Part shown: piece after piece, positions 7,096 through 64,000 of the stretch | Numbering within the stretch: position 1 is the first letter of the stretch | How the letters are laid out: each line of letters begins with the position of its first letter | NCBI RefSeq assembly: GCF_965363235.1 | Contig: NC_134842.1 | Coordinates: forward strand, 33,912,757-33,976,756 | DNA length: 64,000 nt | DNA from: Mytilus galloprovincialis | Taxonomy: Eukaryota | Direction: 5' to 3' | Translations under genes and position numbers: made by a program | Notes under the pieces: generated by a model | Told to the model about the DNA's origin: nothing | The model's input: the letters and a program-made list of their open reading frames with translations, nothing else | Database searches by the model: none

Positions 7096-7109
7096 CTTTA
7101 TAATACCAG

Positions 7110-9146: not shown

Positions 9147-9189
9147 GTAAATATAACCTTATGACATGGGTAGTATGAAATGATAAAAT

Positions 9190-9425: not shown

Positions 9426-10067
9426 TTTAGTTAATTTTGAAACCTAGCACTTCTGTTTTATTTTGCTTTCATCTTAATGGTGGTGATGTGTTATCATTTG
9501 TTTTCTTTTACTTTCAATTAGGAAGAATTATAGTCATTTTATGTTTTATCATCTTCCCGCGCATTAATTGTCTTTATATCTTTGTAGGAAAATATCCATG
9601 TTTTGATTTGTATTATATTCAGTTGACACATACATAACATGCGCTGCGAACTTTGTAGAAGTCACGTGTCTGTCGTTCATAATATTAAATCGTCACCGTT
9701 TTATTTTTCGGATAGGTTTTATTATTTACCAACTGCAAAAGACGGTGATCTGGTTTACGCCGCATCGTCCGACGATCAGAAAATACTTTGTCAAATTTCT
9801 CAAGGACTTTAAATCAGATCCTAAAATTGTATGTCACTTCTTGTGTGAGCATATTATACTTTGTAAGGCATTTTCAGATTATTCGGTCATCCCTGCTGAC
9901 CATTTACTTACGTATTCATTCACAAAATGGCCAAGATAAATTATCATCGAAGATTGAAAACTGAATTATGGCTTTCTGAAAATCAGAACCAATATAATCT
10001 TAGCTATATTTGGCAAAACTTTCAATGTTCTTCAACTTCGTACTTTATTTGGCCATTATTACTTTTT

Positions 10068-10260
10068 TGGATAGTTATCAAAAGTACCAGGATTATAATT
10101 TAGTACGCCAGACGCGCGTTTCGTCTTCATAAGACTCATCAGTGACGCTGATATCAAAATATTTATAAAGCCAAACAAGTACAAAGTTGAAGAGCATTGA
10201 GAATCCAAAATTCCAAAAAGTGTCAAATACGGCTAAGGTAATCTATGAGTCTTTGTAGCC
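10068..10260. mobile_element. Interspersed repeat family B (tRNA-head-like hairpin gacgcgcgtttcgtcttcataagactcatcagtgacgc … ggctaaggtaatctatg)
   Basis: Copies at 24236-24430, 24598-24800 (partial) and 23402-23515 (partial); fragment at 14325-14365. Confidence 0.55.
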
Positions 10261-11081: not shown

Positions 11082-12191
11082 GTAAGTATTGTTTTTACCT
11101 TTTAAATTGTAACTAACAAATTGAACACAATGTTATTTTCATATGTACAACTCGTATAAAAATCAACCCAACAAACTTAGATCTAAAAATTTGCTTTCGG
11201 AATTTTTTTGTTCCTCCCTCGCTGGGATTCGAACTCATGCTCCTGAGATATCGTGACACCAAATCGCCTGCATTGTTTCCGACACGCTTTTGTTTATCTT
11301 TAACTGTTTCCGACACGCTAGACCACTCGACCACCTTGGCTTCACAATAATAAAGCTTTCGATGGCTGGGTGTTACCTTTCCTCGTCAGTTTTAATCTAG
11401 CGTCGTAATACAGTACATTATCTATTAGGCATAAAGATTGAATTGTTACAGATCAGCTGAAATATTTATTGTGAAGGATCTTACAAATTAATGCAAGATA
11501 CAGTCACAGAAATAATTATATTTATAAGTACGTCTGAACCAGTGACAACTCTACAACAGATTTATCCATCGGTTCACCAGCAGTGATGGTGATACATGAC
11601 TGTGTACATTCTGTATATACAACTCGTCTAAAAATTAGCCCAACAATGTATATATATGTTAGGTGACATTACGATATTAGGGGAAACAAATAACTCTGAC
11701 ACTGTTAGCAATTTGTAGGTCACCGTATGGCTTCAACAATGTGCACAACTCATATCGTGCAGTAATTTTAAATGGCCCGATATGACAATATTTTAAAAAC
11801 AATTCAAACTAGAAAAACCAACGACCTGAGTTGTGCTTGAAAAAATAAACGATAAACGTTAGCAACCGACGACATTAACGGAAATATCAAGGTAAAATGT
11901 TTCCAAAATTTCAAATTATTCCGTATGTTGGTCAGACTTAATTATGTTTACTTGTTAATCTATTCACTTTTGTTTCTTGATTTCAATATATTGTCTCTGA
12001 GTTAATTCGCTTTGTTGGTTCGATATGTCAGAGGCGTTTACAAATTTAATTCATCTCTTTTATTCATATTTATATAATACAATTTTCTTTTTTTGGCAGT
12101 TACGTATGCATTACTGCTGTAAAACCTTCATGTTTAATATGCTTTGTGATAAAAAAATGTTTTTTATCTACTTATATAAAAAATGTAAAAC

Positions 12192-12462
12192 TACCTATTT
12201 TGATTCATTAGAAGTGTGAAAAATGTAAAACAACCTATTTTGATTCGTTAGAAGTGTGAAAAATGTAAAACAATCTTCTTTGATTCATTAGAAGTGTGAA
12301 AAATGTGTGATTCATTAGAAGTGTGAAAAATGTAAAACAACCTATTTTGATTCGTTAGAAGTGTGAAAAATGTAAAACAATCTTCTTTGATTCATTAGAA
12401 GTGTGAAAAATGTAAGACAACCTATTTTGATTCATTAGAAGTTTGAAGTTTAGACTCTAACA
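12192..12462. repeat. Minisatellite with higher-order structure: 40-bp unit (gaaaaatgtaaaacaacctattttgattcgttagaagtgt) × ~7, two alternating variants (80-bp higher-order repeat)
   Basis: Direct reading. Confidence 0.8.
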
Positions 12463-21399: not shown

Positions 21400-22330
21400 C
21401 CACAAAAATGAAAATAAGGTCACGTCATTGGTTGAATTTCCATTGTTATGACATTTTTAACCAATACGACGTTTTGATGTACACTTTTGAAAATATTACC
21501 CAGGATGCATTAAATTCTGAAAAAGGCGAATTAATCAAATCTTCGATTTATAGCAATCGTTTGCCAATTTCTTCGTTCATAGATACAAATTATCAAGACA
21601 CTTCGCTTTTAACTCCCTCAGACAAATTTTATCTGAGCTGACTTTGACTATTTATTGGTTTCTTGTTATCATTAAGTAGGAAAACAGTCAAATTGAAGGG
21701 AAAAAAAAAACAGTCTGAAATCATTTCTATTCAAAATTTATTATAAATCGTTAAAAAGAGGATTTCGAACGTATAGGTGAATCATGAACTTTAGAATTTC
21801 AACGAATGTACAATTTGTTATACGCCCGTTTACGGGACGCATTATAGTGAACCGTTGTTCGGCTGTCCGCCAGCTACATGCCGGACTTTAACTCAAAAAC
21901 TCTTCAACCTATTTGCATACAACTTTGGTGAATTGTTTATATCTATTGACGTGAGCTCCCTTTCGTTTTTTATAAATTTTAGATTTTATTTTTTCGAGTC
22001 TTGGCTTTTATTCATTACAATAACAGGGATTTTCCAGTTTTCTGAGAATCACTGAAAAAAAAGGCTTTCACCAATTTGCAAGAAACTTAAATGAATAATT
22101 TATATATATTGACATATCTTTCAATTTTTACAAATTTTAGATTTTACATTTCCAAATAATGGCTTTATTCATTACAAGAGACAAGATTTTCTAGTTTCGG
22201 ACATTAACTCAAAAAAGCTTTGAAAAGTTTTCCTAACATTAACTTTACGTTAAGTGTACATCAAAACGTCGTATTGGTTAAAAATGTCATAAACAATGGA
22301 AATTCAACCAATGACGTGACCTTATCTATT
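21400..22330. mobile_element. Second foldback-like structure: ~90-bp inverted repeats (21400-21500 vs 22240-22330) enclosing an internal ~200-bp tandem duplication (21860-22060 / 22080-22210)
   Basis: Reverse-complement match aaaataaggtcacgtcattggttgaatttccattgttatgacatttttaaccaatacgacgttttgatgtacac. Confidence 0.5.
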
Positions 22331-25830: not shown

Positions 25831-26249
25831 CTGTTGACATAAAAAAAAAAAAAAAAACAATTCTTAATTGTATTTAGCTTCAAACATTTTTGTGTAAACT
25901 ATATCATTTGATTCATGGATATCTGATCTATATGTATTGTAATGCTAAATAATGTATGTATCGAAGAATAATATGTTGAGGGCAAATTTCACTTAGACGT
26001 GTACTTGCCATGAATTACAAACAAGTGTCGCCAGTTAAACCGGAATTCATTTCACTTTGGGTTCAGATGAGTTAAATACCGAGTTTTTGTGAGGTTAGTG
26101 AAGCTCAAATTTAATCGTCTGTGTAGTGTTGTCTGTTTGTCTGTCTTTTTCCTTTGACCATGGTGTAGTTTTTTTCTACCTATATATCTTCTTTCTTTTT
26201 TGCCATTACAAGTTCAATAAGTTTTGAAGTATTTATATATTTAAGGAAT

Positions 26250-26500
26250 GACTGTAATATTTTTTCTGTCTATGAAGAAATAACATTAAAAATTTGGTGC
26301 ACACTGAATAACATTTTTTATGTTATTTCGAATAGACAGAAAAAATATTACACTCATTTCTTATAATTTAATTCTAAATTCCATTTTAAACCGTAGAAAA
26401 CCATGAAAAAAACGTTGATGACGTCACGGTCACATGACTAAATTATGTCTATGGGCTCATAACAAAATAACGTCAGCCAATCAGAAGACGTGTTACATCC
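26250..26500. repeat. Interspersed repeat family E with internal hairpin (tctgtctatgaagaaataacat / atgttatttcgaatagacaga)
   Basis: Second copy at 34120-34345 in the same orientation. Confidence 0.5.
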
Positions 26501-45600: not shown

Positions 45601-48600
45601 AATTGACTAATTAGTTTCACTAATTATATTCACCAAATCTAATTAGATTTTACCGGAATAATTTAGTGATTTTTCTTACCTTTGATCTTTGAAATTTTCT
45701 TTCCCCGTCACTGGAAATTAAACTCTTTCCTTGAAGTCTATAATGTGTGACTGTTCATCGTTGCATTTGCGAACATGGTGCTTTCGTCTTAACTGTAGTA
45801 CAACCGTTTGTATACTTTGTATAAGTCGTTATTTGCAATGGGGCGAAATGCTGCATTAAAGTTGGGACTAAAATAGTGTAGATCTCTAACTGCTGCCATC
45901 TGATTACTTTGCGTCCGTCGCTTTATTTTGCTTATATCGGACACATTTCTGAATCCATTTATTAGCCTAGGATGTCACCATAATCCACGATTTAAACCAA
46001 CAACGTGACAGTATCCTCTTAATTTATGGTTATAATTGTTAATGCATGATCCAAAAGAATTAAGTAGTTTTTAAGTTCACGAATAATAAGATATGATAAA
46101 AAAAAAATAACTAAATTAGAAAAACACTTCACAATAATATTTTATGACAAACAGACAATTACTTAGCATTAATTCGTTTTCGTAAAAAAGAAAGCATTCA
46201 CATTCCAGGCTCATGGTATCTTTTAAACGAATGTATCTTTTTCACAGAAACAGATGTTATCCGCATGGAAATCCGATTCACTTTTGCATCACAAAGGTAA
46301 AATCTATTTACCTTCGACTCAATAAAATGCCTTGGTCAATAACATTTAAAGGAAACTCCAGAACATACTGAAATGCCACAAGTAGACAGTCGTGCATTTC
46401 CAAGTTCTCTTATTTATTTATTATTTGGTTGGTCTCCCTAAAATTACTAAATTTCACTGTGAAAGTCATCTTTTTAATCCCTTCTGATATATATCTGATG
46501 AATTTTATTTCAGAAACACGAGTCATGACATATGAAGAAAAACATATCATGTTTGGTAGACAGCAACCCAACACCACAAATAGACAAAATTATCTGAAGA
46601 ACAACATAAAAAGACTTCACTCAAAACACGCAAGAAGTCTCCGAAAACTCAAAACACTCAAGAGGACACCGACAACTAAAAACACTCAATAAGACTCCGA
46701 TATCTTGAAACACTCAAGACCCAGATAACCCAAAGCACTAAGAACAACAACGACAATTTAAAGCATTTAACAAGACTCAGACAACTAAAAACACCCAACA
46801 AGACTCAGACAACTAAAACACCCAACAAGACTCAGACAACTCAAATAAAGACGATGATAAATGTGATTCAATGTGATAATTTCAATCTTAAAAATTGAGA
46901 ATGGAAATGGGGACTATATTAAAGAGACAACAACCCGACAAAAGTGCAAACAAGTCGGAGGCCACCAATGGGTCTTCACCGCAGCGAGAAAAATTCCCAC
47001 ACCCGGAAGATGTCATCAGCTGGCCCCTAAATAAAATTGTGTACTAGTTCATGATCAGTGAAAATGGACGTCACACTTAAATCCAAAATATATATAAATG
47101 AACTAATTAAAAATTAAAACACATACAAGACTTACAAAGTCCAGAGGCTTCTAACTTGGGACAGGCGCAAAATAGCGGCGAGGTTAAACATGTTTTTTGA
47201 GATCCAAACCCCCTTCCCCTATACCCCTAGCCAATGTAGAATAAAGAAACACATAACAATATAATAATTTACATATTCTCTAATGAATCATCTGACTGAG
47301 ATACGATTCTTCATTACTTTGATAAGAACAGGGGATGTAAGTGTTCATTGCAAGTCAAACTTTGACTTCTGAATAAGGGTTGTGCTCAGTTTTTAAGTAT
47401 TTAGTCTGCAATGACTTTCTGTGACACCTAGGAATATGAAAACATGGAAAACATATCAAACACTGTCGACCTTGCGTTCTGTACTGAGATTTTTGTTGTG
47501 TGCGTTTTTAATGGAATGAACAATCAACAATTACGCACTAAATAAGTCCGTTAGTTTTCTCGTTTAAATTGTTTTACATTGTCATTTCGGGGTCTTTTAT
47601 AGCTGACTATGCGGTATTGGCTTTGCTCATTGTTGAAGACCGTACGGTGACCTGTAGTTGTTAATTTCTGTGTCATTTTGGTCTCTTGTGGAGAGTTATC
47701 TCATTTGCAATCATACCACATCTTCTATTTTTATAAGCAAGTATTATTATAATTTACATTTACGTATTGGGCTACATCGTTGTATGTTTAACTGAACTAA
47801 GTACATATGAACCAAGTATGTTTATGACGAACTGTTTTAATCTGTATTTTGTATGATGTATTGATCTCTTAAATTAAGTTTTGGATGATTAAGTAAAATG
47901 TATCTTTTCGTATTTTTCAATTCATAATAATTATGCTAATAATGTAAAGTATGCCTTTGTGTATGCTTATTCATTTGAAAAAAAAAAACACGCTATAAAA
48001 ATGTTTTATTCCATAAGAGCAACCAAGCATGTTTCTAATTATGCGTCAATAATTAATCGAAACAATTTGAAATGATACATCTAAAATTATAACTGCATTT
48101 GTCCCACTTTCACTTTCCTGATTGTCCCTAATTCTTTTATCATTACATCGTTTTCGTGCCACCCTATTCAGTTCTGGATATTCAATTTATAGTAAAGATA
48201 ACATTAAAACAAGAAATGGTTAATACAAAAATTATTTAAAGATTTTCAAGCCGGGGGGTTTGGGTTGCGAACCACTCCAAAAAAAAAACTAAATCCGCTA
48301 GTGTGTTTGACTATTGACGAAGATAACAAAGGAAGATTAACATGTTTGTGATTCACAAAATCTTTACTCTTAGGTCCAAAATAAACTCACTGTATTTTCT
48401 TTGGTTTTGGTGGGGTTCGTGTAGCTCCGTCTTTATAGTTTTGTCAAGCCATTGTCAGTTTGTTTTCGAATTATGAGTTTGAATATTCCTTTGGTAATTT
48501 TATATACATTGAGTTTATTTTGGACTTCTAAGAGTAAAGATTTTATGCGAACATCGATGTAGGAGAAATTCAAACCTTTGTTCATGTTATTTATAAATAA

Positions 48601-49387
48601 TTTCATTTTTCCATGTGAAGGGAGATAATTCTTGTCTAACATGTATACTTTTTGTCATTTGGTTTGTCCGAAGTGATTTATGCAGTGATTGCTTAAACGA
48701 CGTGTAACTTCCGTGTAAACTTGGGATTTGTCATTGATGCCTTTCCTGTCTATAAAAAATCACGATAGCTAGCTGTCATTGTGACAAAAAAATGATTTTA
48801 CAGGCGTTATTCATTGATTTTATTGAGGAACAAATTATCTGAACAATAAAATTGTCAATCTCTACCGTAAAATTGACCAGTCCAGTTCAAGTCGTAGATA
48901 CGACAATACATTACATATATATATATACAATGTTTAATAGACTAAGTATAAAATTGCACATTTAATATGGCATTTATAATTGTTTTTCCTATGCGGGTAC
49001 ATTTCATAAACCATTTTTTATACTTGAGAGGGCGAAGTATGTAATTTTCATATAATACGAGTGTCTACATATAAAAAAAGATGTGGTACGGTATGATTGC
49101 AAAAATACAGTTGATTATGTTCAGTAAGATCAAGTAACCATTTGTTTGCTGTGTGACTTACGTCGCTAGGAATCTGACGAAATTTTATTTTACTAATATT
49201 TATGTTCTTTTTTTGTATTTCAGAGTTGTTGGTCTTTTGGGATTGGAATATTAAAGGATCATAGAATTGCTATGTACATAACAGTTGCCGGCGTCAGGAT
49301 GTGACTTAGCCATGGCAAATATTGTTTTACGATCAGCAAAACTATGTTTTCGACCGTCAAATGTCCGATTGATACCGACACAGTGGC

Positions 49388-49660
49388 GGATCCAGGGGGG
49401 GGGGGGGGGGGTTCCGGGGGTGCGCACCCCCCCCTTTATTTTTGCCGATCAATGCATTTGTATCGGGACATATGTTTTGCACCCCCCCTTTGCCCTGGGT
49501 GCCCTGGGTTAGCACCCCCCCCCCTTTCGAAAATTCCTGCATCCGCCCCTGCGACAGATCCTTCATGTTTTTATCCTCCATTTATGGGCATTGTGTTTTC
49601 TGGTCTGTGCGTCCGTTCGTTCGTTTGTTCGTCCGTTCGTCCGTCTGTCCCGCTTCAGAT
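49388..49660. repeat. Homopolymer-rich GC island: G18 tract, several C8-C11 runs, then a (GTYC)n microsatellite (gtccgttcgttcgtttgttcgtccgttcgtccgtctgtcc)
   Basis: Direct reading; highly atypical composition for this AT-rich window. Confidence 0.8.
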
Positions 49661-49959
49661 TAAAGTTTTTGGTCGAGGTAGTGTTGTATCGGAAGTTGAA
49701 ATCCAATCAACTTGAAACTTAGTATATATGTTCCCTATGATATGATATTAAAAAATCAGACATTTTGTCCCATTTTTTTTTATTTGTATTAATTATTGAG
49801 AACTAATTGTTGCATTAAAAAAAAACATAATAGTTAACAAAACGAAGTAATAAAAACTGGTGTAACATGTTCAAAACACATGTATGCTACATTCAATCAA
49901 AACCCGGCACAAAATTATTTTAAATTAAAGCTTTCAGGTTGTACCAATATGATAAACAA

Positions 49960-50800
49960 AGCAAGTTGAACATATCACTGATAAACAAAGCAACATAACT
50001 CTGATGCATTGATAAACAAAGCAACATAACACTGATACACTGATAAACAAAGCATCATAACACTGATACACTGATAAACAAAGCAACATAACACTGATAT
50101 ACTGATAAACAAAGCATCATAACACTGATATCACTGATAAACAAAGCAACATAACACTGATACACTGATAAACAAAGCAACATAACACTAATACACTGAT
50201 AAACAAAGCAACATAATACTGATACACTGATAAACAAAGCAACATAACACTGATACACTGATAAACAAAGCAACATAACACTGATACACTGATAAACAAA
50301 GCAACATAACACTGATATACTGATAAACAAATCAACATAACACTGACACACTGATAAACAAAGCAACATAACACTGATATACTGATAAACAAAGCATCAT
50401 AACACTGATATCACTGATAAACAAAGCAACATACATATAACACTGATACACTGATAAACAAAGCAACTTAACACTGATACACTGATAAGCAAAGCAACAT
50501 AACACTGATATACTAATAAACAAAGCCACATAACACTGATATACTGATAAACAAATCAACATAACACTGATACACTGATAAACAAAGCAACATAACACTG
50601 ATACACTGATAAACAAAGCATCATAACACTGATACACTGATAAACAAAGCAACATAACACTGATACACTGATAAACAAAGCAACATAACACTGATATACT
50701 GATAAACAAAGCAACATAACACTGATACACTGATAAACAAAGCAACATAACACTGATACACTGATAAACAAAGCATCATAACACTGATACACTAAGTACC
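49960..50800. repeat. Satellite: 36-bp unit (ctgataaacaaagcaacataacactgatacact) × ~23
   Basis: Direct reading; a degenerate older array of a related unit (cactgacacataaagcagtataaca) continues 50800-51150; track ORFs 50055-51144 are repeat artefacts. Confidence 0.85.
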
Positions 50801-51852
50801 TAACACTGACACACAGAGCAACCTAGCACTGATACACAAGGCGGTATACCACTGACACAAGAGGAGTATAACACTGAAACAAAAAGCAGTATAACACTGA
50901 AACAAAAAGCAGTATAACACTGGCACTCAAAACAACATAACATTGACACACAAAGCAGTATAACACTGACACATAAAGCGGTATACCACTGACACAAAAG
51001 GATTATAACACTGAAACAGAAAGCAGTATAACACCGACACTCAAAACAACATAAAGTTGACACATAAAGCAACATCACACTGACACTCGAGGCAACATAA
51101 TACTGACCCACACAGCAACAAAACACTGACACATAACGCAACATAACACGGACACATGAAGCTATTGATCACTGAATATACCATTGCCCAAGGTTATAGG
51201 ACCTTTTACATTATATGCATGTCTATCTCGTCAGTAGCCTCTGATTCAGTGGTTGTTGTTTGTTGCTGACTGTTGTATATGTGCTGGTTGATTGTTTTAT
51301 TATTGTTTAGTCCGTTTGTTTTTTGTTTTGTTTTGGTTTTTTTATTAAATGCTGTATTATATCATGTCGAGGAGTTATAAGACTGACTGTACATTATTGG
51401 TTTGGCTCATTGATGAAGGCCGTACCATGACTTTTTAGTTCTTAAATGCATAATATTTGGACTCTGTTCGATGGTTGTTTCAATATAAATCATACCGGTA
51501 TTACATCTCCTTATTTTATATAACTTGCTGATAAAGAAAGCAACATACCGCTGATTAACAGATAAACATAACTACTTATTGCTGATAAACAAAACAAAAT
51601 TTTGTTGATAAGCAAAACCATTCTCAACAGCTTTATGCAACGGATTAAAACATCAAATTCAAAATTACAGACACTCGTCAGGGGAGATAATGTTTAACAG
51701 TCATGCAACGCAATGTTATTGTAACATTTGAGAATTGGTTAAAACATATTTCAACCTCATTGCTTATGAGCAGCCACAAGCTACATATCAGTTATTTATT
51801 TTCAGACATTTTTTAATACTTTTGCATATAAATAACAATTCTTATACTACAA

Positions 51853-51858: not shown

Positions 51859-52069
51859 TAGCACTAGGCTGACAACATCTCACTATTTGTTCTCCTCATA
51901 CAAAGTAAGTTTTCTGAAATTTCTCATCCATTTACCGACATTCTCCGAATGGACTCAGTTTTTGTGTTAAAGGCAAATTTGAAATTTCATATATTCAGGA
52001 TTTCGATATCTTAGTTTGTAATACATTATCCCTTCAAAGGTCATAAAACGGACGGTTTGATTTGTCTTC

Positions 52070-52437
52070 TCAGTGAAATATGCAATTAACTTTGTACTCT
52101 TCCTCGCAGATTTTGGTTTCATTATTAAAATACAGATCACGTGGACACTTTTGAACATATGGAATATTGTCGAAACAATTTAAAAACTTTTTGCAGGTTT
52201 CTGGATGCGGAAACAGACCCATGTGACTTGGACACGTGATCATTGAGTAACATGGAACTGCATCTTTATGATTGCAAGCTTTAATAGAGTTGTCAAAGAG
52301 CATCCCTGTTGGACATCTTTCACGAGCAGGAATATTCAAATCACATTTAAATAGGTAGGCACAATTATAAGGATCCTGAAATATTGCATTTAGGGAGGGG
52401 CAAATAACTGGTGGGTTCGGACTTGGTTTCCAAAATT
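52070..52437 (-). CDS. Gene 3 last exon: two tandem ChtBD2 domains plus stop (…PPVICPSLNAIFQDPYNCAYLFKCDLNIPARERCPTGMLFDNSIKACNHKDAVPCYSMITCPSHMGLFPHPETCKKFLNCFDNIPYVQKCPRDLYFNNETKICEEEYKVNCIFH*)
   Basis: Minus acceptor ttttctttacAG (plus 52438-52445); stop at plus 52070-52072; two complete 6-Cys ChtBD2 patterns; the track's M at 52339 is a TTG codon, not a real start. Confidence 0.7.
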
Positions 52438-53756
52438 CTGTAAAGAAAAAAATGAATTAGCATGTATTGTAAAGGTTCGACAGAATACCGAATACCAAAA
52501 ACGCTAACCGGTTAACCGGTCTTTTTTTCAATTTTGATAGATTTGATATAAATTTGTATTGAAATGAACAAATAGTTATGGTTTTTTTTTTAAATGTCGT
52601 CGTGGTAATTAATTTGACAGATAAATTGTCCAGTATATTGATTGCTATTGTTAATCCTAAAAACATAAAATTAATTAGAGCAAGGGGCAGGATCTTAAAG
52701 AAACATAATTAGTATATATGTTTTTTTAACAGTAATTTTAAATCAGTAATGCAATTAAATTTTACTAATTACTTCATTATTTTGTTTTTTATCTAAAATT
52801 GTGTAAACCTACATCTAAATGTGCAACCTCCGTAGTGCAAGGCTTAGTATTACTTTAAACGAAATGCTAACTCAAAAATTGTGATTTGCAAACCAGTGTG
52901 AATGTACCCAATGTATACGTGATAGTACGAGTTGCATGCTAAAATAAACAAGCAAACAAAGTAAAGAAACATGTCGTACGGTGACCTATAGTTGTTCATT
53001 TCTGTGTCATTTTGGTCTCTTGTGAAGAATTGTCTCATTGGCAATCATACCATATCTTCCTTTTAATAATAAATCATTTCAAATTGAAACACTCAACATT
53101 ATTTTCGGAGACAACAAGAGAAAGGGAAAGAATAATCGGTTTCAGACAAATTCAGTTCAACGAGCTCAAGAAGATTTTTTTTTCATTTTTCAATCTGAAG
53201 TTGGTACAAACGCTATAGATACGGTGTATTCGATTATTAAAAGTCAAACTTCCCCAGGAATCCTCACAGACAAGCCTTATAATGCCAAAGGACAATCTTC
53301 AATTTCATAAGCGTAAATTCATTACTTGGATGAAATGTTGTCAAATTGACACTCATACCACATTATCTATGTGTAGGTACTATTGATAAAGCTTTCAAAC
53401 ACCAACTTAAACTACCGGTTAACCGGTTGATCAGTCGAACGATTATCCGAGTAACCGGTTAGGAAAAAGTGTACAATTTGACAACACTAATTTATTTACA
53501 TGTCTGTATAAATAAAATACAACGTAGATTTTATTTAATTTTACGTAAAGAAATAAAATGCCGCTGTTTCCGTTTTCTTGATGTTCAGCAAATTTCGGGT
53601 TAACAGATATATGATGTTTTCCAACATTTCTTTGTATTAAATGGTATTTAGACGAAAAGTCTGTGTTGCACACAATACACATGTACTACGATCAAACCGC
53701 CATCATTGACACGACGAAAGTGTTTAGTATATACTAGATTAATTTATAATATGTAG

Positions 53757-54757
53757 CACTGAACATTTTACGTTCCGTTCAATGTTGTTCATACGTTGTT
53801 ATAATTTTGACAATCAAAGGGAGGTTATATGTGAATTTGTGTTTGAAATGAAATTAATGTCCTGTACACATTAAAATGGAGTCAATAAATTAAAAATGGG
53901 GAAACACTAGATAGTGGATTGTTAACTTCCGGTCATTTTGAGGCAAGCCCTGAACGATCTTTCATACTAACGTTACAAAAGCGTACATTTTCAAGGTTCA
54001 AAACTCTGAAATACAGTGGAGATAACTTCTAACCTCTCATTAGAACTGTCAAAATAATTTGTCATAGAACTGTTTTAGATAAACTGTCATAGAACAGTTC
54101 TAACTACAAACGTAGAACAGTGCTACCCTAGAACTGTTCTAAGTATAACTGTCAGAATCAGTTCTAGCTATAGAACTGACCAAATCAGTTCTAGGTAGAA
54201 CTTTCAGGATCAGTTCTATGGTAGAACTGTCCAAATCAGTTGTAACCATAGAACTGCCAACAGAACTGACAAGACAGTTCTAACCGTGGAATTGTCAGGA
54301 TGGTTGAACAGTTCTAAATGACGTCACTGCAGTTAGAGAAATGTAAAAAGAGTGCTGTGATGATTTTTTTTTTAATATATATTATATTCTTTTGACTTGT
54401 TTATATTTAAGACAAAGAGTTCTAAAAACTGTTCTATGGAGAGAAATGAATAAATCAATTAGTCAGTCCTAATAGAACTGACCAAATCAGTTCTAATCGT
54501 AGAACTGTCTAATACTGTTCTAGGGTAGAACTGTCAAGATCAGTTATAGGTAAGAACTGTCTAAAAGGTGTCAGGATGACAGTCCTACATACTTTTCTAG
54601 AACAGTTCTCCTGACATATTGTGACATATTTGATGAGAGGTAAGAAGTTATCTCCACTGTAGCACTGAAAATTCTACATTCCGTTCTACTCCTTTCAGTG
54701 TTGCTTAAACGTTGTAATAATTTTGACAATTAAACGGAGCTTAAGTTTACTTACTTG
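53757..54757. mobile_element. Foldback-type element: ~80-bp direct flanks, ~30-bp inverted repeats (cagtggagataacttctaacctctcatta / taatgagaggtaagaagttatctccactg), internal arrays of palindromic ~22-bp units (CAGTTCTA…TAGAACTG)
   Basis: Direct reading of 54017-54046 vs 54633-54665 and arrays 54040-54320 and 54410-54610; lies in the gene 3 intron. Confidence 0.6.
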
Positions 54758-54799
54758 GAAAACAATTGTCAGCTGTAACATTTACAACATCTTCTATTG
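54755..54799 (-). CDS. Gene 3 candidate 45-nt micro-exon (AIEDVVNVTADNCFP), phase 1/1; may be skipped
   Basis: Minus acceptor ttccctttCAG; donor CCAA|GTAAGT; phase-compatible, but direct VWA-to-last-exon splicing is equally in frame; lies at the edge of a foldback repeat. Confidence 0.3.
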
Positions 54800-55394
54800 C
54801 TGAAAGGGAAACACTTTAGGTCAGTAATTGGACTCAAGACAAATATAACAATTTAAATCATACATGTATGCAATTCAGTCTTTGTTTTCAATCTAACTTA
54901 TAGGACAGGATGAGAGTACTTGTTCTATGTAAAGAACAATAACTCTTGATATCAAACAACTGTTGAATTTTTTTTTTTTACTTTGATCAAAACGACTGAT
55001 GCCATATGTGAGGCACGATATGTATATCCTAGCGGAGATCACCCTCGGTTTTTTGTTGGAGTTCATCTTGCTTAGTCTTTAGTTTTTTTTATATAGCGTC
55101 TTGTAAACTATTGATTTAACACACTTTTTTTCTGTTTATTCTGAATTTGTTGTTTGAATCAAATATTAATTATACAATTTAACAAAAAACTGTTTGGATA
55201 AAGGGGAAAACAAAAAACACAAAATGTATAATTCAGATTGAATTTCCGTTGATGAACGAAAAAATATTAAGATATATAGTTTATAACAGTACAGATTCAT
55301 AGCAACAAAAAAAGGGATTTTTACCAGATGTTTGATTTGTGTAATTTTTCATATGTGTATAATCAATTTGAAATACATGCAAAAAGAAACGAAC

Positions 55395-55991
55395 CTGTGC
55401 ATATACTGCTCCCGATATAAGGTAGAAGACCTCTTAGACCTTCCGAGTAACTTTCCATTGAGAAAACATTACATTTATGAGAGGCTATCTCTGGAAACCA
55501 TTCACCATTCGGCATTCGTCCAACTGAATACATGTCGATTCCAGCTTCCTTAAACTGTTTTGTAGCTGCAATGATATCGGGAATCATATCTGCCTGAACT
55601 GAGCCATAGGTGAACATTACTCCAATTTGTTTGGTGTCGGGTCTAGGTAATACCAGAGGATAACCGGATGGATTTCTGAACATTTGTCGCATTAAGTAAA
55701 GTGCCGCTTTGACATCTGCTGCTCCTTTTAGTTTTCCATTGTATAATTCTCTTTGCGCAAGAAGGCTTATTCTGGTATTGGTTTGTGTTTGATCCTTCAT
55801 TGGTTGCGGCCAACTGATTGCCACAGCTTCTCTTCCGTATAATATCAGACCAATATTTACATTATCTCTGTCGATTTGAAAATAATCTGTAAGCATGGTT
55901 AAAAATCGTTCAAACGGAAAGAATTCTTCCCCCGGAATGTCTGCGTTCCCAGGAATAGCAAATATTATATCTGCCTTCCCTCCACAATCGG
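55395..55991 (-). CDS. Gene 3 exon: VWA domain, MIDAS degenerate (ADCGGKADIIFAIPGNADIP…IGLILYGREAVAIS…LVLPRPDTKQIGVMFTYGSVQADMIPDIIAATKQFKEAGIDMYSVGRMPNGE…ICT)
   Basis: Minus acceptor ctatttttAG (plus 55992-55993); donor CAG|GTTCGT (plus 55393-55394); contains ORF 55363-55896; phase 1 in matches exon 1. Confidence 0.7.
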
Positions 55992-57334
55992 CTAAAAATA
56001 GAAATATCAGTATAGATGTTAATTACGACAGTTAAACAGACATCTAGAGAGGATACTTTAACCTTCGATACTGACATGATTCCTAACAATCCTATCTTAC
56101 ATTTTCTTTTTTAATAAATTTTGAAACGATTGAGAAACGTCGGCTTGTATAATCTTTTAATGTCCCTTTTGGTTACAAACAGCTCATCGCATACATCCTT
56201 GATTTACTGAGAAACTTTGACTAAATTTCCCTTTAATGAATTTGCATATTCTTTTATTGTATTTTTCTGTTCTTTAAAACGACGAATTTTGACAACATGA
56301 AATTTTAAACTCATTGATGCTTTATCACCCAAAATAGTGACGACGGGTGTGCTCTAAACATGTCGTAATGTCAATCCCGTCCTCTTTTCCTTGAATCATG
56401 TGACCAGCTGAATAAGACTTATAACCGAGTTTGTACTTGCTTTAGCAACACGATGGGTTCAACATGTGGAGCAGGATCTGCTTACCCATCCGGAGCACTA
56501 GAGATCATCCCGGTTTTTAGTTGGATCCGTGTGACTCAGCATTTGGTTTTCTCTGTTTTGTTTTGTAGATTTTCTTTTTGATTTTTTTTTTTTTTTTTTT
56601 TTGTCGTTTTTTCTTGCCATGTACGTCATTGTTATAGTTCATTTTCGACTTATGAGTTTAAATATCCCTTTGGTATTTTCCTGCAGTCTTTAACAATTCC
56701 AATATCCAATATTGAATATACTATAGAGCATTGTACTATACAGTTACAAAATGAATTGGCGTAGGACAGGGTTATCTAATTATACATCTTCTATTTACTC
56801 TGTTAAATGACATCATCGTGTTGTTGCGTTTTTGTCTCAATGGAAAACTTTTTCTTTGTGATATCATGTTCTTGATTGACTTATGATTATGCCGACCAGT
56901 TGTTTATATCTATTATTTATAATTAAAATTGCCTTCAAAACTGTCGTCAAATATCCATGCATTTATCTAGTTTATTTTGCACATGAGCCATCATGTATAG
57001 GGCGGCGTTTAAAGTCAAAGTTTTCGTATATGAATATTATATACCAACTATTTATGACATTGTACTAAGAGATTACACAAATGCTTCTTATTTAATATGT
57101 TTTTCAAACTTTTCAGTAAATTTGATTTTTCACTGAATGTAAAAAAAATAATTAATAAAACATTCAAAGAGGAGAATAATTTGACTCTCGGCAAAATAGA
57201 ACGTTCTACCGGTTTGTAAGTGGATTTTCTAATACGTTTGTCCAAACCACTATATTGATTTTTTTCAATTAATTATGTTTGGTTGTTATGTAAGCAATAA
57301 TTACGTTTAAAGATAGCCAATAAAAAGAACTTAC

Positions 57335-57445: not shown

Positions 57446-60279
57446 GGTTATCTAAGGTGGTCAGAGTGATTCGATTTGACAAAATATATGAGTGTCTGGA
57501 TGGGATTTTCAGAAAAGTAAATAATGACTAAATGAGCAAGAAATAAATAATGAAGAATTAAAACGTAATGAATTGATAAAATAAGTAAAAACAAATATGA
57601 CAATAAAGAATAATGGGGTGTTCAAATGTCGATTAATAAGGAAAATCCACCAACAAATTAAAGAACATAATATACCAATGACTTGAGAAATTAAAGAATA
57701 CAGAAAGGAAAGAACCCCCATTCGGACCCTCATATATGGCAATAAAACAATTAATTTGCAACACGTTTTTTTTTTTTATTTGTGTATTGTCTGACAATAA
57801 AATGTAGATTTGTGACATTATGTTACGTTAAAAGCATTTTTATGGTTTTGATCTCGTCTTGTTACATTTGTTGACTCATAATTTTGACCATGCCGTAGAT
57901 CAGAAACATTCTCAATTTTAAAAGTCGCATGTTCTCTGGGACACGTATTTGTACCAAAAATTTCGGTTTTGATGATTTAATTTAAACAAAATTATAAACA
58001 TTATGCCGACTTTCAGAGAAGAATTAAATGGTTTAAAATTACACTTATTCTTTCAAGAATTACACCTAATACACTATGAAATAGTGTCAATTTAATCGAA
58101 TTTTATTCGAATTAATTCAAAGTTTCAATGCAAAAAGAAGTACATGCAAGTGGGTTTTTTTTTTAGAAAAAAAGCTGTAAAATGTAAAAAATACAAGTCT
58201 TCATTTCACTTACCTTTCGAAGAATAATAGGTTTTTAATATTATTATAATCATCAATTTTCCTTTTAACAAAAACTCAAAAGGTTAACATTTCCAAGTAA
58301 GAATTGTGGCGTTTTCTTTTTGGAAAGTAAGAAAACTGGCACAATGAAATATAATGTCTCGTTCAGTTAACCGTAAAAAATGGTCAGATCGTGTTGCCTT
58401 CATATGTTAATTTAACACAATAAATACCTCATTGATATATCATAATGATTATTTTGTCACTAATTTATATATATTAACGATGACCAGGTCGAGAATTTAT
58501 GACTATTTCACGATCAAATTAATTTATTCATATGTTTTTAGTATAACCTGTCTGCAAAAGCGAAATATATATATTAATATATTAAATGCATTTTTCCAAA
58601 AAGATATAGTCTTGCATTTTTGTTTCACGAAAGTGAATACAGAGAAATAGAGTTCGAAAGGATACTTTGAAGCTTGTTTTAGGTATATACATGACTTAAT
58701 CATATTACAAAGTGTGAGTAAAAGGTCTAGACATAAAAAAGACACATCAAACACCTACATAAAAAATGGAAAGACCTAGTCTTGACTGAAATATTTCACA
58801 TTCTAGGAAATGACTGGTTATCTGTGACATTAAGCATCAAACTTAATTGACTAGACAGTAATTACATTTCCTGTTTTTATATCTATTCATTCTGGTATAT
58901 TTACGGGCACTGAATCATATGAATATAACCTATTGACGAATGAATATCAGTTAAAAGACATGTTCCCACTAGTTTTTTGTTTTTGTTTTTATCATCTCAC
59001 TAGTGATAAGCCCCCGCACAATAATCATCTCAGCTTAACATAAATGTCAACGAAATTAAAACAAAAAACAGGTAGACTTTTGAATAAAACAATTGTTGTT
59101 TATGAAGGCCCCCTTTTTGTTTAGGTGGTGGGGATACGGGAGGGTACTATTTCGACGGATAAGTAAGTCTACATTGGTAGACAATAGTCGTATTATAGTC
59201 GGGTATGAAAAGCAACTACATGTACATGGCAAAATTTGATTTAAAACAATTCAAAGGAAGACTGAGATAAACAATGATATGATCTATAGCAAAACAATGA
59301 ACGAAAAACATGCATTACAGACAGCAACCATGCAACAACAAAAACTGAATCACCTGATCCTCACCCAAGTTATATTAAGTTCAAATTACAGCCAATTAAT
59401 TCATGTATGATCATGACACTGTTCTCCCAGACTAAAATATGATTAAATACACGTCTTTTTTTTTATCCAAAGAGTGTATAAACAGAAGTTTAGATATAAA
59501 ATAGTTTGATTACTATTGAACCACAATCGGGCTTAGGAGCATTAACCGTGAGCTGAAGGAGATAAAATCCAAATATCTCGATTGCTCTTTGTTCGTTGTC
59601 CCATACATGCACACATACAGACGGCTGTTTATAGTATTACTGGAGACATTGGCATCGTGAACAATGACCAACTTAAAAAGTTGTAAGGCAAAAGCCCGAA
59701 ATAAGGCATTACCCGGCTTATCAACTAGAAGTAGGATACACAGGCACTTGTTTCTGTCAATGTGGGGTTTACTATCCATACCAGTACAAAAAAAAAAACA
59801 CACGGTAGCTAACGGAAATTTTCAATGTGTTCGCTTCAACCAATATTTTCTTAATTTCCCTTGATTTTTTCACAAATAAAAGTACACCAGTCTGTCGGTA
59901 ATTGATTTATCTTTACAATGAAACAACTTTCACGTACCTTGAGAATACCCCTCAAACAGAATAACACACTTCAGATGAGAATTATTGACCTTTTTCCAGA
60001 CCATTGAATTTGTAAGGACTTAATTTCCGGTAAACTTAGGAAGTTAATATAACTGTGCAATCCCATTGGTTTAATTCATCTGGTTACCTGTTTATTTATA
60101 CTAGTTACCAGTAACCAGAAAAATGTGACCAATGGGATTATGTGTCTATTTCAATTGATTCAATTAGTTAATGTGGAAGATTTTAACTTAATAAGTCATT
60201 TAAAACGCCCCGATTCAAGCTTAAATATGAAAAATCTATCAAATATGCCAAAAATCGTCACTTTTCAGATGGTTTTTGT

Positions 60280-60405
60280 CAAAAATGAAAGTGGCCGCAT
60301 CCGCGTTCATCCTCAACCTTTATATATATTATGTAATATCATCAAATACAACTTATATTTCAATATTATGAATGAACACGAATGCGGCCACTTTCATTTC
60401 AGACG
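60280..60405. repeat. GC-rich 28-bp inverted repeat (aaatgaaagtggccgcatccgcgttcat / atgaacgaatgcggccactttcatt) separated by ~65 bp of AT-rich spacer
   Basis: Direct reading; potential hairpin. Confidence 0.55.
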
Positions 60406-61059
60406 GAAACCGTCTAAAATTTAACTAAAATGCTACAATTGTGAAGAGTAAGTAGCATGACTTAATGATGCTAGTACCCGATATATGTGCATTGTGTTGT
60501 CAAAAACAGCCCATATTTATGTAGCAGAAGCATTCTACTTTGCAATAAATATCTAAACGATTACATTTTCACAATTTTCTAAAACTGCTATATTTTAAGG
60601 CCAAAAAGGGGTCTTACTGAACCTACTCCTTTATAATATATGGATTTTGGTGTTTAAAAAAAAGCAGTGATACACACCACCATATAATTGTTATTCAATG
60701 ACCATACAGTTCATATTATTTACAAAATACAAACATAGTTTATCATTCGTTTGAGCAGGTGAGTGTATTATGGCATCGGCAATTGCAATTTTTGACTTTC
60801 ACATTTATCTCTTCTTCAACACTTTGCAACGGCTAATTACTTTGAGTTCAATTGCTTTAATAAGTTGTCCAAGCTATATAACCTGGTTATTATTATTTAC
60901 ACTATTTAAGTCATTTCCTCAGTTGATGTAAAAAAAAAATACAAGAGTGCACACGCTGAAATGTTTTGCCTTCTTTACTAATCATTGATATTATGTTGAT
61001 AGTCCTAAATATAAAGCTTTATTATAACTGTCACATAAACTTAACCAAGCAAACTTAAC

Positions 61060-62140
61060 ATTGACTAATGAACCATGAAAATGAGGTCAAGGTCAGATGA
61101 ACCATATCAGACATTCATGTACAGCTAACAATTCTTCCATAAAACAAATATAGTTGACCTATTGCATATAGTTTAAGAAAAATAGACCAAATACACTAAA
61201 ACTTAGCACTGAGTAATGAACAGTGAAAATGAGGTCAAGGTCAAATAAAACCTTATTGTTTTGGACTAAACCCATCTGGTTTCAAGGAACGCTTTGGTTT
61301 AACTTCTATCCAAGTACTTTTAACGTCCAGCATGCGACTTCAATGATTTTACAGATGATTTAACAGATGTCCATGATGTTGTTATCAGATGAACCATATC
61401 AGGCAGGCATGTACAGCCAACAATTCTTCCATAAAACAAATATAGTTGACCTATTGTATATAGAAAAACAGACTAAAACACTAAACCTTAACACTGAGCA
61501 ATGAACCGTGAAAATGAGGTCAAGGTCAAATAAAACCTGTGCGACTGACAAATAGATCATAAAATATTTCCATACACCAAATATAGTTGACCTATTACAA
61601 TTAGTATAAGAAAAAAAATCAAAACTCAGACAACTGAACCATGAAAATGAGGTCAAGGTCAGCTGACACCTGCCAGCTAAACATGTACAATCAATCAATC
61701 ATTCCATACACCAAATATAGTAGATCTATTGCATACAGTACAATAAAAACAGATCAAAACAAAAAAACACTTAACTATAACCACTGAACCATGAAAATGA
61801 GGTCAAGGTCAGATGACACCTGCCAGTTGGACATATACAACTTACAGTCCTTCCATACACCGAATATACTAGACCTATTGCTTATAGTATCTGAGATATG
61901 GACTTGACCATCAAAACTTAACCTTGTTCACTGATCCATAAAATGAGGTCGAGGTCAAGTGAAAACTGTTTAACGGGCATGAGGACCTTGCAGGGTACAT
62001 ACATACCAAATATAGTTATCCTATTACTCATAATAAGAGAGAATCAAGTTAAAATTACAAAAAATCTTAACTTTTTTTCAAGTAGTCACTGAACCATGAA
62101 AATGAGGTCAAGGACTTTGGACATGTGACTGACGAAAACT
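61060..62140. repeat. Satellite-like array of ~145-bp units × ~7, each containing tgaaaatgaggtcaaggtca (AGGTCAAGGTCA direct repeat)
   Basis: Recurring blocks at ~61070, 61215, 61490, 61635, 61780, 61925, 62090. Confidence 0.65.
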
Positions 62141-63649: not shown

Positions 63650-63905
63650 CGGTTTTTGAGCTTTCACTTAGGCCAAATAAAATAATATGTGTGTTTCCTG
63701 TTTCATCTTTGAAAAAAATAGGGTAGGTAGGTAGGGATTTTTTTTTATTTTACCATTTTTTTTACATTGAGTCTATGGGAGAGAAATCCTGACTTTAACA
63801 GTGCTTATTGAAAAATGACCAAAAAAACTTTAGGGTAGGCTATTTCTAAGCTTAAAATATAGGGTAGGTAGGGAAACAGGAAACACACATGCTTTTTTAT
63901 TTGGC
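63650..63905. mobile_element. Copy 2 of the second MITE-like element
   Basis: Shares >200 bp of near-identity with 9190-9425. Confidence 0.55.
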
Positions 63906-64000
63906 CTTATGCTACCTGAAGCTGTTAAACAGCCTTTAAAACAGATTGTACTGGTTTTCCTGCATGTCAATACATAGGTAGGTACAGCACTGCTACATGT

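What the first reader, a model, noticed from the sequence alone, without database searches (positions are those of the whole stretch)
53757..54757. Foldback element with palindromic micro-tandem arrays inside the gene 3 intron
About 1 kb is bounded by ~80-bp direct repeats (53757-53830 vs 54665-54757) and ~30-bp inverted repeats (54017-54046 vs 54633-54665). Two internal arrays are built from ~22-bp units that are themselves palindromes (cagttctagctatagaactgac; tagaactg…cagttcta). The sequence would form extensive cruciform or hairpin structure. The candidate micro-exon 54755-54799 lies at its right edge, and its donor region sits partly within the right-hand direct repeat, so the element may have contributed splice signals.
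Basis: seen in the sequence. Interest (0 to 1): 0.55.

Follow-up and report, generated by a model that had tools for sequence, protein, structure and literature searches.

The report
Decayed hairpin transposon in an intron
A roughly 650-base relic of a non-coding "cut-and-paste" transposon with inverted ends and an internal array of small palindromes sits in an intron of a VWA/chitin-binding gene, next to an old, conserved 45-base micro-exon whose splice signals it did not supply; this is ordinary genome furniture.

Summary
The mobile-looking unit is 54012-54661 (650 bp), not about 1 kb. Its terminal inverted repeats are sharply bounded: the first 29 nt match 28/29, 45 nt match at 87%, and about 70 nt at 82%. 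Inside are two blocks of ~26-bp near-palindromic units (TAGAACTG-N7-CAGTTCTA) around an AT-rich middle. All 16 exact TAGAACTG 8-mers in the 64-kb window lie inside it. It folds far better than shuffles (z = -13 as DNA, -12 as RNA).

The two arrays are direct repeats of each other, not inverted, so this is not a canonical Foldback element.

The "~80-bp direct repeats" are not element ends. They belong to a ~170-bp local duplication of host sequence (53752-~53922, a decayed copy of 54658-~54831). That duplication includes the micro-exon and stops exactly at the element's right end.

The micro-exon 54755-54799 (minus strand) is real. Three homologous loci from other assemblies have the same 45-nt length and phase and a GTAAGTA donor. 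The element therefore did not contribute splice signals.

The superfamily is unresolved. The candidates are Tc1/mariner-like (TA|CAGTG ends) and Mutator/Foldback-like (imperfect 9-bp target duplication, 7/9). I found no second copy anywhere I could search.

Low interest: a new member of a known kind.

The parts
54012..54661 (.). The TIR element itself (650 bp with the flanking TA; 646 bp if the ends are CAGTG...CACTG). It is non-coding; the longest stop-to-stop frame lying wholly inside it is 46 codons.
   Evidence: for the TIR bounds; for the lack of an ORF; for fold z-scores of -13 and -12.
54012..54082 (+). Left terminal inverted repeat. The sequence TACAGTGGAGATAACTTCTAACCTCTCAT is followed by the first 25-bp units.
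   Evidence: (I1), and the alignment (28/29 identical at the tip).
54593..54661 (-). Right terminal inverted repeat, the reverse complement of the left one.
54041..54316 (.). Left block of half-sites. It starts with 2.4 units of 25 bp (54041-54100) and continues with about 26-bp near-palindromic units TAGAACTG-N7-CAGTTCTA (54136-54260 and onward).
   Evidence: TRF; motif map.
54317..54416 (.). AT-rich middle region without the motif (T10, TA-rich).
   Evidence: sequence; no motif between 54316 and 54417.
54417..54610 (.). Right block of the same units. It is in direct orientation relative to the left block and 75-80% identical to it.
   Evidence: (54463-54548 vs 54158-54244, 79.8%).
54003..54011 (.). 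Left flank ACTCTGAAA, the candidate left copy of an imperfect 9-bp target-site duplication. The alternative is that the TA at 54012-54013 is the duplicated target.
   Evidence: (P = 0.0036 for at least 7/9 matches between random 9-mers of the window).
54662..54670 (.). Right flank GCACTGAAA, the candidate right copy of the 9-bp duplication (7/9 match). The alternative is the TA at 54660-54661.
54658..54831 (-). Original host segment that was duplicated. It contains the first ~93 nt of the intron, the donor, the micro-exon, the acceptor and the polypyrimidine tract. It starts at the last 4 nt (TGTA) of the right TIR.
53752..53922 (-). Decayed direct copy of 54658-54831. It is a pseudo-copy of the micro-exon region with no AG/GT splice sites and no open frame. 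An 89-bp unique stretch (53923-54011) separates it from the left TIR.
   Evidence: whole alignment scores 319 against 104 +/- 16 for shuffles; the extension alone gives p = 0.025; no further extension.
54755..54799 (-). Conserved 45-nt micro-exon (phase 1 to 1) encoding (A)IEDVVNVTADNCFP(K). The acceptor is tttccctttcag| and the donor is CCAA|GTAAGTAAAC.
   Evidence: sequence; homologous 45-nt exons in L004, L010 and L006.
55395..56006 (-). Upstream VWA-domain exon of the host gene. The donor is ACAG|GTTCGT, phase 1. The 5' limit is approximate.
52073..52437 (-). Downstream exon with two chitin-binding (CBM_14-like) cysteine modules. The acceptor is ctttacag|AATTTTGG, phase 1. The 3' limit is approximate.

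Best explanation
The interval 54012-54661 is an old, non-autonomous DNA transposon with terminal inverted repeats: a MITE-like element that can fold back on itself. It inserted into the 2.3-kb intron between a 45-nt micro-exon and the chitin-binding exon of a minus-strand VWA/CBM_14 gene, 93 nt downstream of the micro-exon's donor.

Inferred mechanism: a transposase supplied in trans by an autonomous relative recognises the ~29-nt conserved tips. It probably also recognises the repeated 8-bp half-site TAGAACTG, arranged as inverted pairs as expected for dimeric binding. It then cuts the element out and pastes it elsewhere.

The internal 26-bp near-palindromic units form a minisatellite. I infer that it expanded by slippage inside the element, because the two blocks are direct repeats.

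My preferred superfamily is Tc1/mariner. The ends read TA|CAGTG...CACTG|TA, and AACTTCTA sits at nt 11-18 from the CAGTG end. Counting the same way, AAGTTCTA sits at nt 11-18 of the Tc3 inverted repeat if the repeat begins CAG, which I recall rather than read. A Mutator/Foldback-like origin with an imperfect 9-bp target duplication is nearly as likely.

The flanking 'direct repeats' are a separate event: a ~170-bp copy of the host sequence to the right of the element, micro-exon included, deposited about 260 bp to the left. The copy starts exactly at the element's end and includes its last 4 nt. I infer that the duplication happened after the insertion, when repair or replication synthesis copying the flank stalled at the hairpin-forming end.

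The element has no demonstrated function for the gene.
For: Shown:
- The TIRs are sharply bounded, with 28/29 identity at the tips, and similarity stops abruptly outside them.
- There is no coding capacity.
- All 16 TAGAACTG copies lie in the element, against 1.9 expected.
- The units are 26-bp near-palindromes.
- Fold z-scores are -13 and -12.
- The arrays are direct: 324 forward against 210 reverse-complemented, with spacers in the same orientation.
- TA flanks both ends, and the flanks ACTCTGAAA and GCACTGAAA match 7/9 (P = 0.0036 per random pair).
- The published part of the Tc3 inverted repeat is TGTGGGAAAGTTCTATAGGACC. AAGTTCTA lies at nt 8-15 of that string, which is nt 11-18 only if the leading CAG (from memory) is added.
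- The direct repeat extends collinearly through the micro-exon and acceptor. It shares TGTA with the TIR end and extends no further.
- The micro-exon is conserved with identical length and phase and a GTAAGTA donor in L004, L010 and L006.
- Several other TIR pairs in the same window show that such elements are common in this genome.
Against: - There is only one copy. Nothing else in the 64-kb window resembles the TIR, the units or the repeat. Exact-pattern scans of metagenome, prokaryote-genome and viral collections found only chance matches. A protein search with the element's spurious frames found nothing. Mobility is therefore inferred from anatomy alone.
- The target-site duplication is ambiguous. 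TA could simply be the outermost TIR bases, and the 9-bp match is imperfect. Both repeat copies agree on GCACTGAA, so both mismatches would have to lie in the left copy.
- The Tc3 resemblance is a post-hoc comparison of 8 nt.
- The divergence of the host duplication (15-24%) is not lower than that of the TIRs (13-18%), so the proposed order of events is not proven.
Confidence: 0.7

Rival explanations
1. It is a Foldback/Mutator-type element. The TIRs begin at TACAGTG, and insertion duplicated 9 bp of target (ACTCTGAAA / GCACTGAAA). The repeated units are the composite arms typical of Foldback-like families such as FB, Tetris and Tm1.
For: The flanks match 7/9 in register with the TIR ends, which has P = 0.0036 for random 9-mers. 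Foldback-like families have composite TIRs built of short tandem repeats, a non-coding middle domain and 8-10 bp (mostly 9 bp) duplications, and they include MITE-like members (PMC4079207; PMC3169594). This element has a middle AT-rich domain and strong fold-back potential.
Against: The repeat blocks of the two halves are direct, not inverted, and only about 70 nt are truly inverted. The 9-bp match is imperfect, and both mismatches must be placed on one copy, because both copies of the host duplication read GCACTGAA. The TA|CAGTG termini are classic Tc1-family ends (my knowledge; partial support).
Confidence: 0.28
2. One reading: a ~1-kb foldback element (53757-54757) bounded by 80-bp direct repeats, whose right edge supplied the donor splice site of a new micro-exon.
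For: The direct repeats exist and bracket the inverted structure. The donor lies inside the right-hand repeat copy.
Against: The repeat continues through the micro-exon and its acceptor, so it is host sequence. The micro-exon, its phase and its GTAAGTA donor are conserved in three loci from other assemblies, and BLAST finds neither the element nor the repeat in the stretches held for them. The TIR similarity stops at 54012 / 54661, well inside the proposed bounds.
Confidence: 0.04
3. It is not a mobile element. A palindromic minisatellite grew in place by slippage and hairpin-primed synthesis. A local inverted duplication then created the 70-nt inverted ends, in a genome that is already rich in minisatellites.
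For: No second copy was found in the window or in any searchable collection. The window holds many 23-40-bp minisatellites. A local duplication certainly occurred next door.
Against: The tips are unique sequence, not units. They are the best-conserved part (28/29) and end abruptly with TA|CAGTG and duplication-like flanks. That pattern is what transposase-defined ends look like and is not expected from slippage. Other TIR elements are present in the window.
Confidence: 0.13
4. It is a functional RNA or regulatory structure. An intronic long hairpin could yield small RNAs or be edited. Alternatively, the array of palindromic protein-binding sites could act as an enhancer or modulate inclusion of the neighbouring micro-exon.
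For: The minus-strand (pre-mRNA) fold has z = -12. The structure begins 93 nt from the donor of a 45-nt exon whose skipping keeps the reading frame.
Against: No Rfam family matches at E <= 1. The homologous loci from other assemblies (L004, L010) show no trace of the element or hairpin although the exon is conserved there. The arms have decayed to 82-87% identity. The individual unit stems are only 8 bp. No expression data are available.
Confidence: 0.05
5. It is an assembly artefact: collapsed or chimeric repeats.
For: Nothing specific. Repeat-rich, hairpin-forming regions are error-prone in assemblies.
Against: All repeat copies are diverged, at 64-90% between units, 82-87% between TIRs and 76% between direct repeats. 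The surrounding exons are intact, in phase and conserved.
Confidence: 0.02

Closest known systems
Tc1/mariner-derived MITEs and Tc3 / IR-DR type Tc1 elements
   Same: TA on both sides and 5'-CAGTG termini. The element is small, non-coding and AT-rich. An AA(G/C)TTCTA motif lies at nt 11-18 from the CAGTG end, as in the Tc3 inverted repeat (for the published part; the leading CAG is from memory). The Tc3 site GTTCTATAGGAC resembles the unit junction GTTCTA-N1-4-TAGAAC. Repeated transposase-site-like motifs lie inside the arms, as in IR-DR elements.
   Different: IR-DR elements carry two sites per arm, not about 17 half-sites in each orientation. The repeats here form a tandem palindromic minisatellite that is direct between the two halves. 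No transposase-encoding partner and no second copy were available.
Foldback-like elements (Drosophila FB, Tetris, Tm1; mostly Mutator superfamily)
   Same: Modular layout: unique outer tip, short tandem repeats, non-coding middle domain. Strong hairpin potential. A possible 9-bp duplication (7/9). Tm1 includes MITE-like members.
   Different: In Foldback-like elements the tandem repeats are part of the inverted arms. Here the two blocks are in the same orientation, and only about 70 nt are inverted. The 9-bp duplication is imperfect, and the termini look Tc1-like.
Galileo (P superfamily) with long, internally repetitive TIRs holding multiple transposase (THAP) binding sites
   Same: The idea that repeated short motifs in the arms are multiple transposase binding sites (title and abstract of PMC3688188, listed).
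   Different: I recall Galileo making 7-bp duplications, but I did not check this in a paper. Here neither the 7-bp nor the 8-bp flanks match, as read. The TIRs here are far shorter.
Tandem-repeat-containing MITEs of bivalves (e.g. DTC84 of Donax trunculus)
   Same: A short non-autonomous element carrying an internal tandem array (abstract of PMC3879986, listed).
   Different: I recall those arrays being built of roughly 150-160-bp satellite-like monomers between distinct left and right arms; I did not read the paper for this. Here the unit is a 26-bp palindrome, and the element has clear TIRs.

Membership tests
MITE (structural class of non-autonomous TIR DNA transposons) | Small size (under about 800 bp) and no coding capacity | tested here: met
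   The element is 650 bp. The longest stop-to-stop frame lying wholly inside it is 46 codons; two longer frames of 52 and 54 codons run out of its right end. No protein hits were found.
MITE (structural class of non-autonomous TIR DNA transposons) | Terminal inverted repeats with sharp outer boundaries | tested here: met
   The tips match 28/29, 45 nt match at 87%, and about 70 nt at 82%. Similarity ends at 54012 / 54661.
MITE (structural class of non-autonomous TIR DNA transposons) | Many copies with the same ends in different flanks | tested here: inconclusive
   There is no other copy in the 64-kb window and none in the metagenome, prokaryote or viral collections. The source genome itself is not searchable with these tools.
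Tc1/mariner superfamily (non-autonomous derivative) | TA target-site duplication | tested here: inconclusive
   TA is present at 54012-13 and 54660-61. Because TA is its own reverse complement, it could equally be the outermost TIR bases.
Tc1/mariner superfamily (non-autonomous derivative) | Tc1/Tc3-type termini (5'-CAGTG...) | tested here: met
   The ends read CAGTGGAGATAAC...GTTATCTCCACTG. The published part of the Tc3 ITR is TGTGGGAAAGTTCTATAGGACC. The leading CAG and the Tc1 terminus come from my own knowledge.
Tc1/mariner superfamily (non-autonomous derivative) | An autonomous relative with the same TIRs encoding a DD34E/D transposase | not testable with these tools
   No transposase ORF was seen near the element or among the window's ORFs of at least 90 aa, of which eight were scanned against Pfam. 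The genome is not available.
Foldback-like / Mutator superfamily | Long TIRs composed largely of tandem subrepeats, so that the repeat blocks are inverted relative to each other | tested here: not met
   The blocks align better in direct orientation (324) than inverted (210), and the spacers have the same orientation. BLAST finds inverted similarity only for the outer ~70 nt.
Foldback-like / Mutator superfamily | 8-10 bp (mostly 9 bp) target-site duplication | tested here: inconclusive
   ACTCTGAAA and GCACTGAAA match 7/9, with a chance P of 0.0036 per pair.
hAT / P superfamilies | 8-bp (hAT) or 7-8-bp (P) target-site duplication in register with the TIR ends | tested here: not met
   Read directly. 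With the ends at 54012 / 54661 the 8-mers CTCTGAAA and GCACTGAA match 2/8. With the CAGTG ends, CTGAAATA and TAGCACTG do not match.
Known structured RNA families (Rfam) | Match to a curated covariance model | tested here: not met
   No match at E <= 1 in 52000-56500 on either strand. No tRNA-like sequence was found.

The most novel reading that the evidence does not exclude
The element is the first-seen member of a Tc1/mariner-derived lineage that evolved a Foldback-like architecture. In this reading a Tc3-like transposase binding half-site was amplified into a palindromic minisatellite of multiple dimer sites. Its hairpin-forming end then acted as a barrier to repair or replication synthesis, which created a TE-bounded duplication of a neighbouring micro-exon. 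That would be a concrete route from intronic hairpin transposons to exon duplication.
Probability: 0.2. Interest if true: 0.4.

Novelty: new member of a known kind. Interest (0 to 1): 0.2.

Why it matters
Mostly for annotation. This prevents a wrong claim that a transposon created an exon.

Two points have modest wider interest. First, a non-Foldback element carries a palindromic minisatellite of putative transposase half-sites, which fits the published idea that foldback-like architecture evolves repeatedly in different superfamilies. Second, a flanking duplication starts exactly at a hairpin-forming transposon end, which hints at structure-induced template switching. Both points need the whole genome to be tested.

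Tried and rejected
1. Searches for further copies, all negative.
- BLAST of 53700-54800 against the window returned only self-hits.
- Exact-pattern scans with the TIR tip and with a two-unit array pattern covered metagenome, prokaryotic-genome and viral collections. The three array-pattern hits (L007-L009) are chance matches with no arrays.
- A protein search with the concatenated spurious reading frames of the element, meant to catch mis-called ORFs in other copies, returned nothing at E <= 10.
- BLAST against the 10 fetched loci found only the micro-exon.

2. Literature string searches for the TIR and the unit returned only unrelated primers. Accession searches meant to identify the source organism found nothing.

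3. The source taxon was not identified. Homologues of the VWA and CBM_14 exons exist only as unnamed ORF calls in ENA, Logan and JGI assemblies.

4. I tested whether the direct repeats are degenerate extra copies of the element's arm. Pairwise local alignments gave p of about 0.004-0.05 for some pairs and nothing for others, and the 4-way alignment is unconvincing. Part of the apparent match (ACTTAC) is the conserved splice donor. I rejected this as unproven.

5. I tested whether the duplication is a full tandem duplication with the element at the junction. There is no similarity between 53915-54011 and 54825-54960, nor between the left flanks.

6. LTR/TRIM-like, SINE/tRNA-derived and steroid-receptor-element readings: no tRNA-like sequence, and by eye no primer-binding site or poly(A). 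The half-site is AGAACTG, not AGAACA.

7. Transib-like 5-bp and hAT/P 7-8-bp duplications do not fit the flanks (read).

Full report
**Context.** The window is AT-rich (31.6% G+C) eukaryotic DNA with spliced genes built of VWA and chitin-binding (CBM_14) exons. The finding lies in a minus-strand gene with three relevant exons.
- The VWA exon ends at 55395 with the donor ACAG|GTTCGT, phase 1.
- A 45-nt exon lies at 54799..54755.
- An exon with two chitin-binding modules begins at 52437 after ctttacag, phase 1.

Homologues of these exons appear only as unnamed ORF calls in ENA, Logan and JGI assemblies. I could not name the organism, and accession searches in the literature found nothing.

**Checking the observation.**
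- The inverted repeat is 45 nt at 87% (54012-54056 / 54617-54661). It extends to about 70 nt at 82% (54012-54082 / 54593-54661, E = 8e-13).
- The alignment shows 28/29 identical bases at the tips, and similarity stops abruptly outside 54012 and 54661.
- The direct repeat is 53752-53827 vs 54658-54743 (76% with a 10-bp indel, E = 8e-13).
- The micro-arrays have a 25-27-bp period, not 22 bp.
- Each unit is a near-palindrome, TAGAACTG-N7-CAGTTCTA, joined to the next by 1-4 nt.
- All 16 exact TAGAACTG 8-mers of the window lie between 54041 and 54533, against 1.9 expected. With one mismatch allowed there are 17 sites in each orientation inside the element.
- The 650-nt stretch folds with z = -13 as DNA and z = -12 as minus-strand RNA.
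- The copies are all diverged, so nothing suggests an assembly collapse. Reads would be needed to prove this.

**What the element is.** The sharply bounded tips, the lack of any reading frame and the size are the anatomy of a non-autonomous TIR transposon. The layout is:
- a unique ~29-nt tip;
- 2-3 units of 25 bp;
- about seven 26-bp palindromic units;
- an AT-rich middle (54317-54416);
- a second block of units;
- the other tip.

The two unit blocks are direct repeats of each other. The forward local score is 324 against 210 for the reverse complement. The same 7-nt spacers occur in the same orientation (ACCAAAT in both, TCAGGAT / TCAAGAT). BLAST finds direct but not inverted similarity between the blocks. 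Only about 70 nt at each end are truly inverted. The rest pairs in a fold only because each unit is itself palindromic. This differs from canonical Foldback-like elements, whose tandem repeats form the inverted arms.

**Superfamily.** Two readings of the ends fit.
- (a) TA|CAGTGGAGATAAC...GTTATCTCCACTG|TA. This gives a TA duplication and CAGTG termini, as in Tc1 and Tc3. The Tc1 terminus and the leading CAG of Tc3 come from my own knowledge. The published part of the Tc3 repeat is TGTGGGAAAGTTCTATAGGACC. With the CAG added, AAGTTCTA falls at nt 11-18 in Tc3, the same offset at which this element has AACTTCTA. The Tc3 site GTTCTATAGGAC also resembles the unit junction GTTCTA-N1-4-TAGAAC. This is a post-hoc resemblance of a few bases: a lead, not a test.
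- (b) The ends begin at TACAGTG, with a 9-bp duplication ACTCTGAAA / GCACTGAAA. These match 7/9, and random 9-mers of the window do as well in 0.36% of pairs. That would point to Mutator/Foldback-like elements. Both copies of the adjacent host duplication read GCACTGAA, so both mismatches would have to be on the left copy.

Flanks of 7 or 8 bp (P, hAT) do not match, as read. I put Tc1/mariner slightly ahead, but only more copies can decide.

**Search for other copies.** None was found.
- Nothing else in the window.
- Nothing in three public DNA collections. The three array-pattern hits are chance matches.
- No mis-called ORFs from other copies.
- Nothing in the ten fetched loci.
- Nothing in the literature.

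The source genome itself cannot be searched here, so mobility rests on anatomy alone. Six other TIR pairs in the window, one with ~73-nt perfect arms, show that such elements are common in this genome. So are 23-40-bp minisatellites.

**The direct repeats are host sequence.** Extending the alignment shows that the repeat continues collinearly to about 53922 / 54831. The whole alignment scores 319 against 104 +/- 16 for shuffles. The extension alone gives p = 0.025, and it contains the block GGGAAACAC..TAG.T.AGT..ATTG. The right-hand copy therefore contains the first 93 nt of the intron, the donor, the 45-nt exon and its acceptor with polypyrimidine tract. The left-hand copy is a decayed version without splice sites or an open frame.

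Similarity goes no further on either side. An 89-bp unique stretch (53923-54011) separates the left copy from the left TIR. The repeat starts exactly at the right end of the element and shares its last four bases (TGTA, 53752-53755 = 54658-54661).

The simplest reading is that the copy was made from the right flank after the element was in place, with synthesis ending a few bases into the hairpin-forming end. This is inference. The similar divergence of the repeat and the TIRs neither supports nor excludes it. A weak similarity between the repeat and the element's arms did not hold up, in part because it rested on the conserved splice donor.

**The micro-exon is real and old.** The exon AG|CAATAGAAGATGTTGTAAATGTTACAGCTGACAATTGTTTTCCAA|GTAAGTAAAC is open in the required phase. 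It encodes (A)IEDVVNVTADNCFP(K).

Three homologous loci from other assemblies each have a 45-nt exon in the same position and phase.
- L004 and L010 come from the same ENA assembly. Their VWA exons are 56% identical to the window's. The exon encodes LNESINATVNNCFP, and the donor is GTAAGTAAAC.
- L006 comes from a Logan assembly, and its VWA exon is 68% identical. The exon encodes AIENSTNITEENCFP, and the donor is GTAAGTATTA.

The local alignment scores are 45-55, against a background of 21 +/- 3 per kb. BLAST of the element and repeat against these loci finds only the exon itself. The splice signals therefore predate the element and the duplication, and the suggestion that the element contributed them is refuted.

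Skipping the exon would also keep the frame (G+AA = Glu). An influence of the nearby hairpin on exon inclusion is conceivable but untested.

**Rivals.**
- A local, non-mobile origin (minisatellite plus inverted duplication) is kept at about 0.13, because only one copy is known.
- A functional hairpin RNA or regulatory array is unlikely. There is no Rfam match, no trace of the element in the homologous loci and the arms have decayed.
- An assembly artefact is unlikely because every repeat is diverged.

**Verdict.** This is an ordinary, old, non-autonomous TIR transposon with an unusual but not unprecedented internal palindromic minisatellite. Next to it lies a small TE-bounded host duplication. 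Novelty: a new member of a known kind. Interest: 0.2.

Noticed in passing
window 54755-54799 (minus strand); L004 11423-11467; L010 about 7331-7375; L006 1312-1356: A 45-nt, phase-1 micro-exon with an N-x-T glycosylation motif and a conserved NCFP lies between the VWA and chitin-binding exons. It has the same length and a GTAAGTA donor in homologous loci from other assemblies. ORF-based gene calls in those assemblies miss it.
   Followed up: yes
window 21414-21486 / 22252-22325: A pair of inverted repeats about 73 nt long and 100% complementary, about 765 nt apart. It looks like a young TIR element unrelated in sequence to the one studied.
   Followed up: partly
window 2860-3261, 7942-10068, 26242-26363, 47704-49103, 63670-63907, 60263-60419: Further inverted-repeat pairs of 32-73 nt at 75-94% complementarity, probably other MITE-like elements or hairpins. 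TIR structures are common in this window.
   Followed up: no
window 49950-51156: A large minisatellite region: 31-bp unit x 27 copies at 92% identity, then 23/114-bp units. It has extreme strand asymmetry (GC skew -0.36, AT skew +0.48) and produces long spurious Cys/Leu/Val-rich ORFs on the minus strand.
   Followed up: no
window 3700-4483, 12179-12447, 46619-46845, 6792-7092: Further minisatellites: 33 bp x 24 copies, 40 bp x 7, 28 bp x 8, and 74-93 bp x 2. The 3700-4483 array lies in an intron of the plus-strand VWA gene.
   Followed up: no
window 947-7366 (plus strand): A second, paralogous gene with VWA-like exons (947-1588, 2001-2615, 4767-5396) followed by a CBM_14 exon (7079-7366). This is the same exon order as the minus-strand gene and as locus L004. 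A clear counterpart of the micro-exon was not found in its intron; the best candidate is DSCFP at 5637-5651, which has no GT donor.
   Followed up: partly
window 53415-53460 and 52506-52520: The palindrome ACCGGTTAACCGGTT recurs within the same intron, in two copies about 30 bp apart and one copy about 900 bp away. It may be the remnant of another repeat family.
   Followed up: no
window 49344-49715: A 123-codon ORF rich in Gly and Pro (GGGGGGSGG, PPPL) in the locally most G+C-rich kilobase (38%). It has no Pfam match and may be low-complexity repeat sequence.
   Followed up: no
window 61069-62104: The same 15-mer recurs five times at spacings of about 133-433 bp on the minus strand, which suggests a dispersed or tandem repeat in that region.
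   Followed up: no
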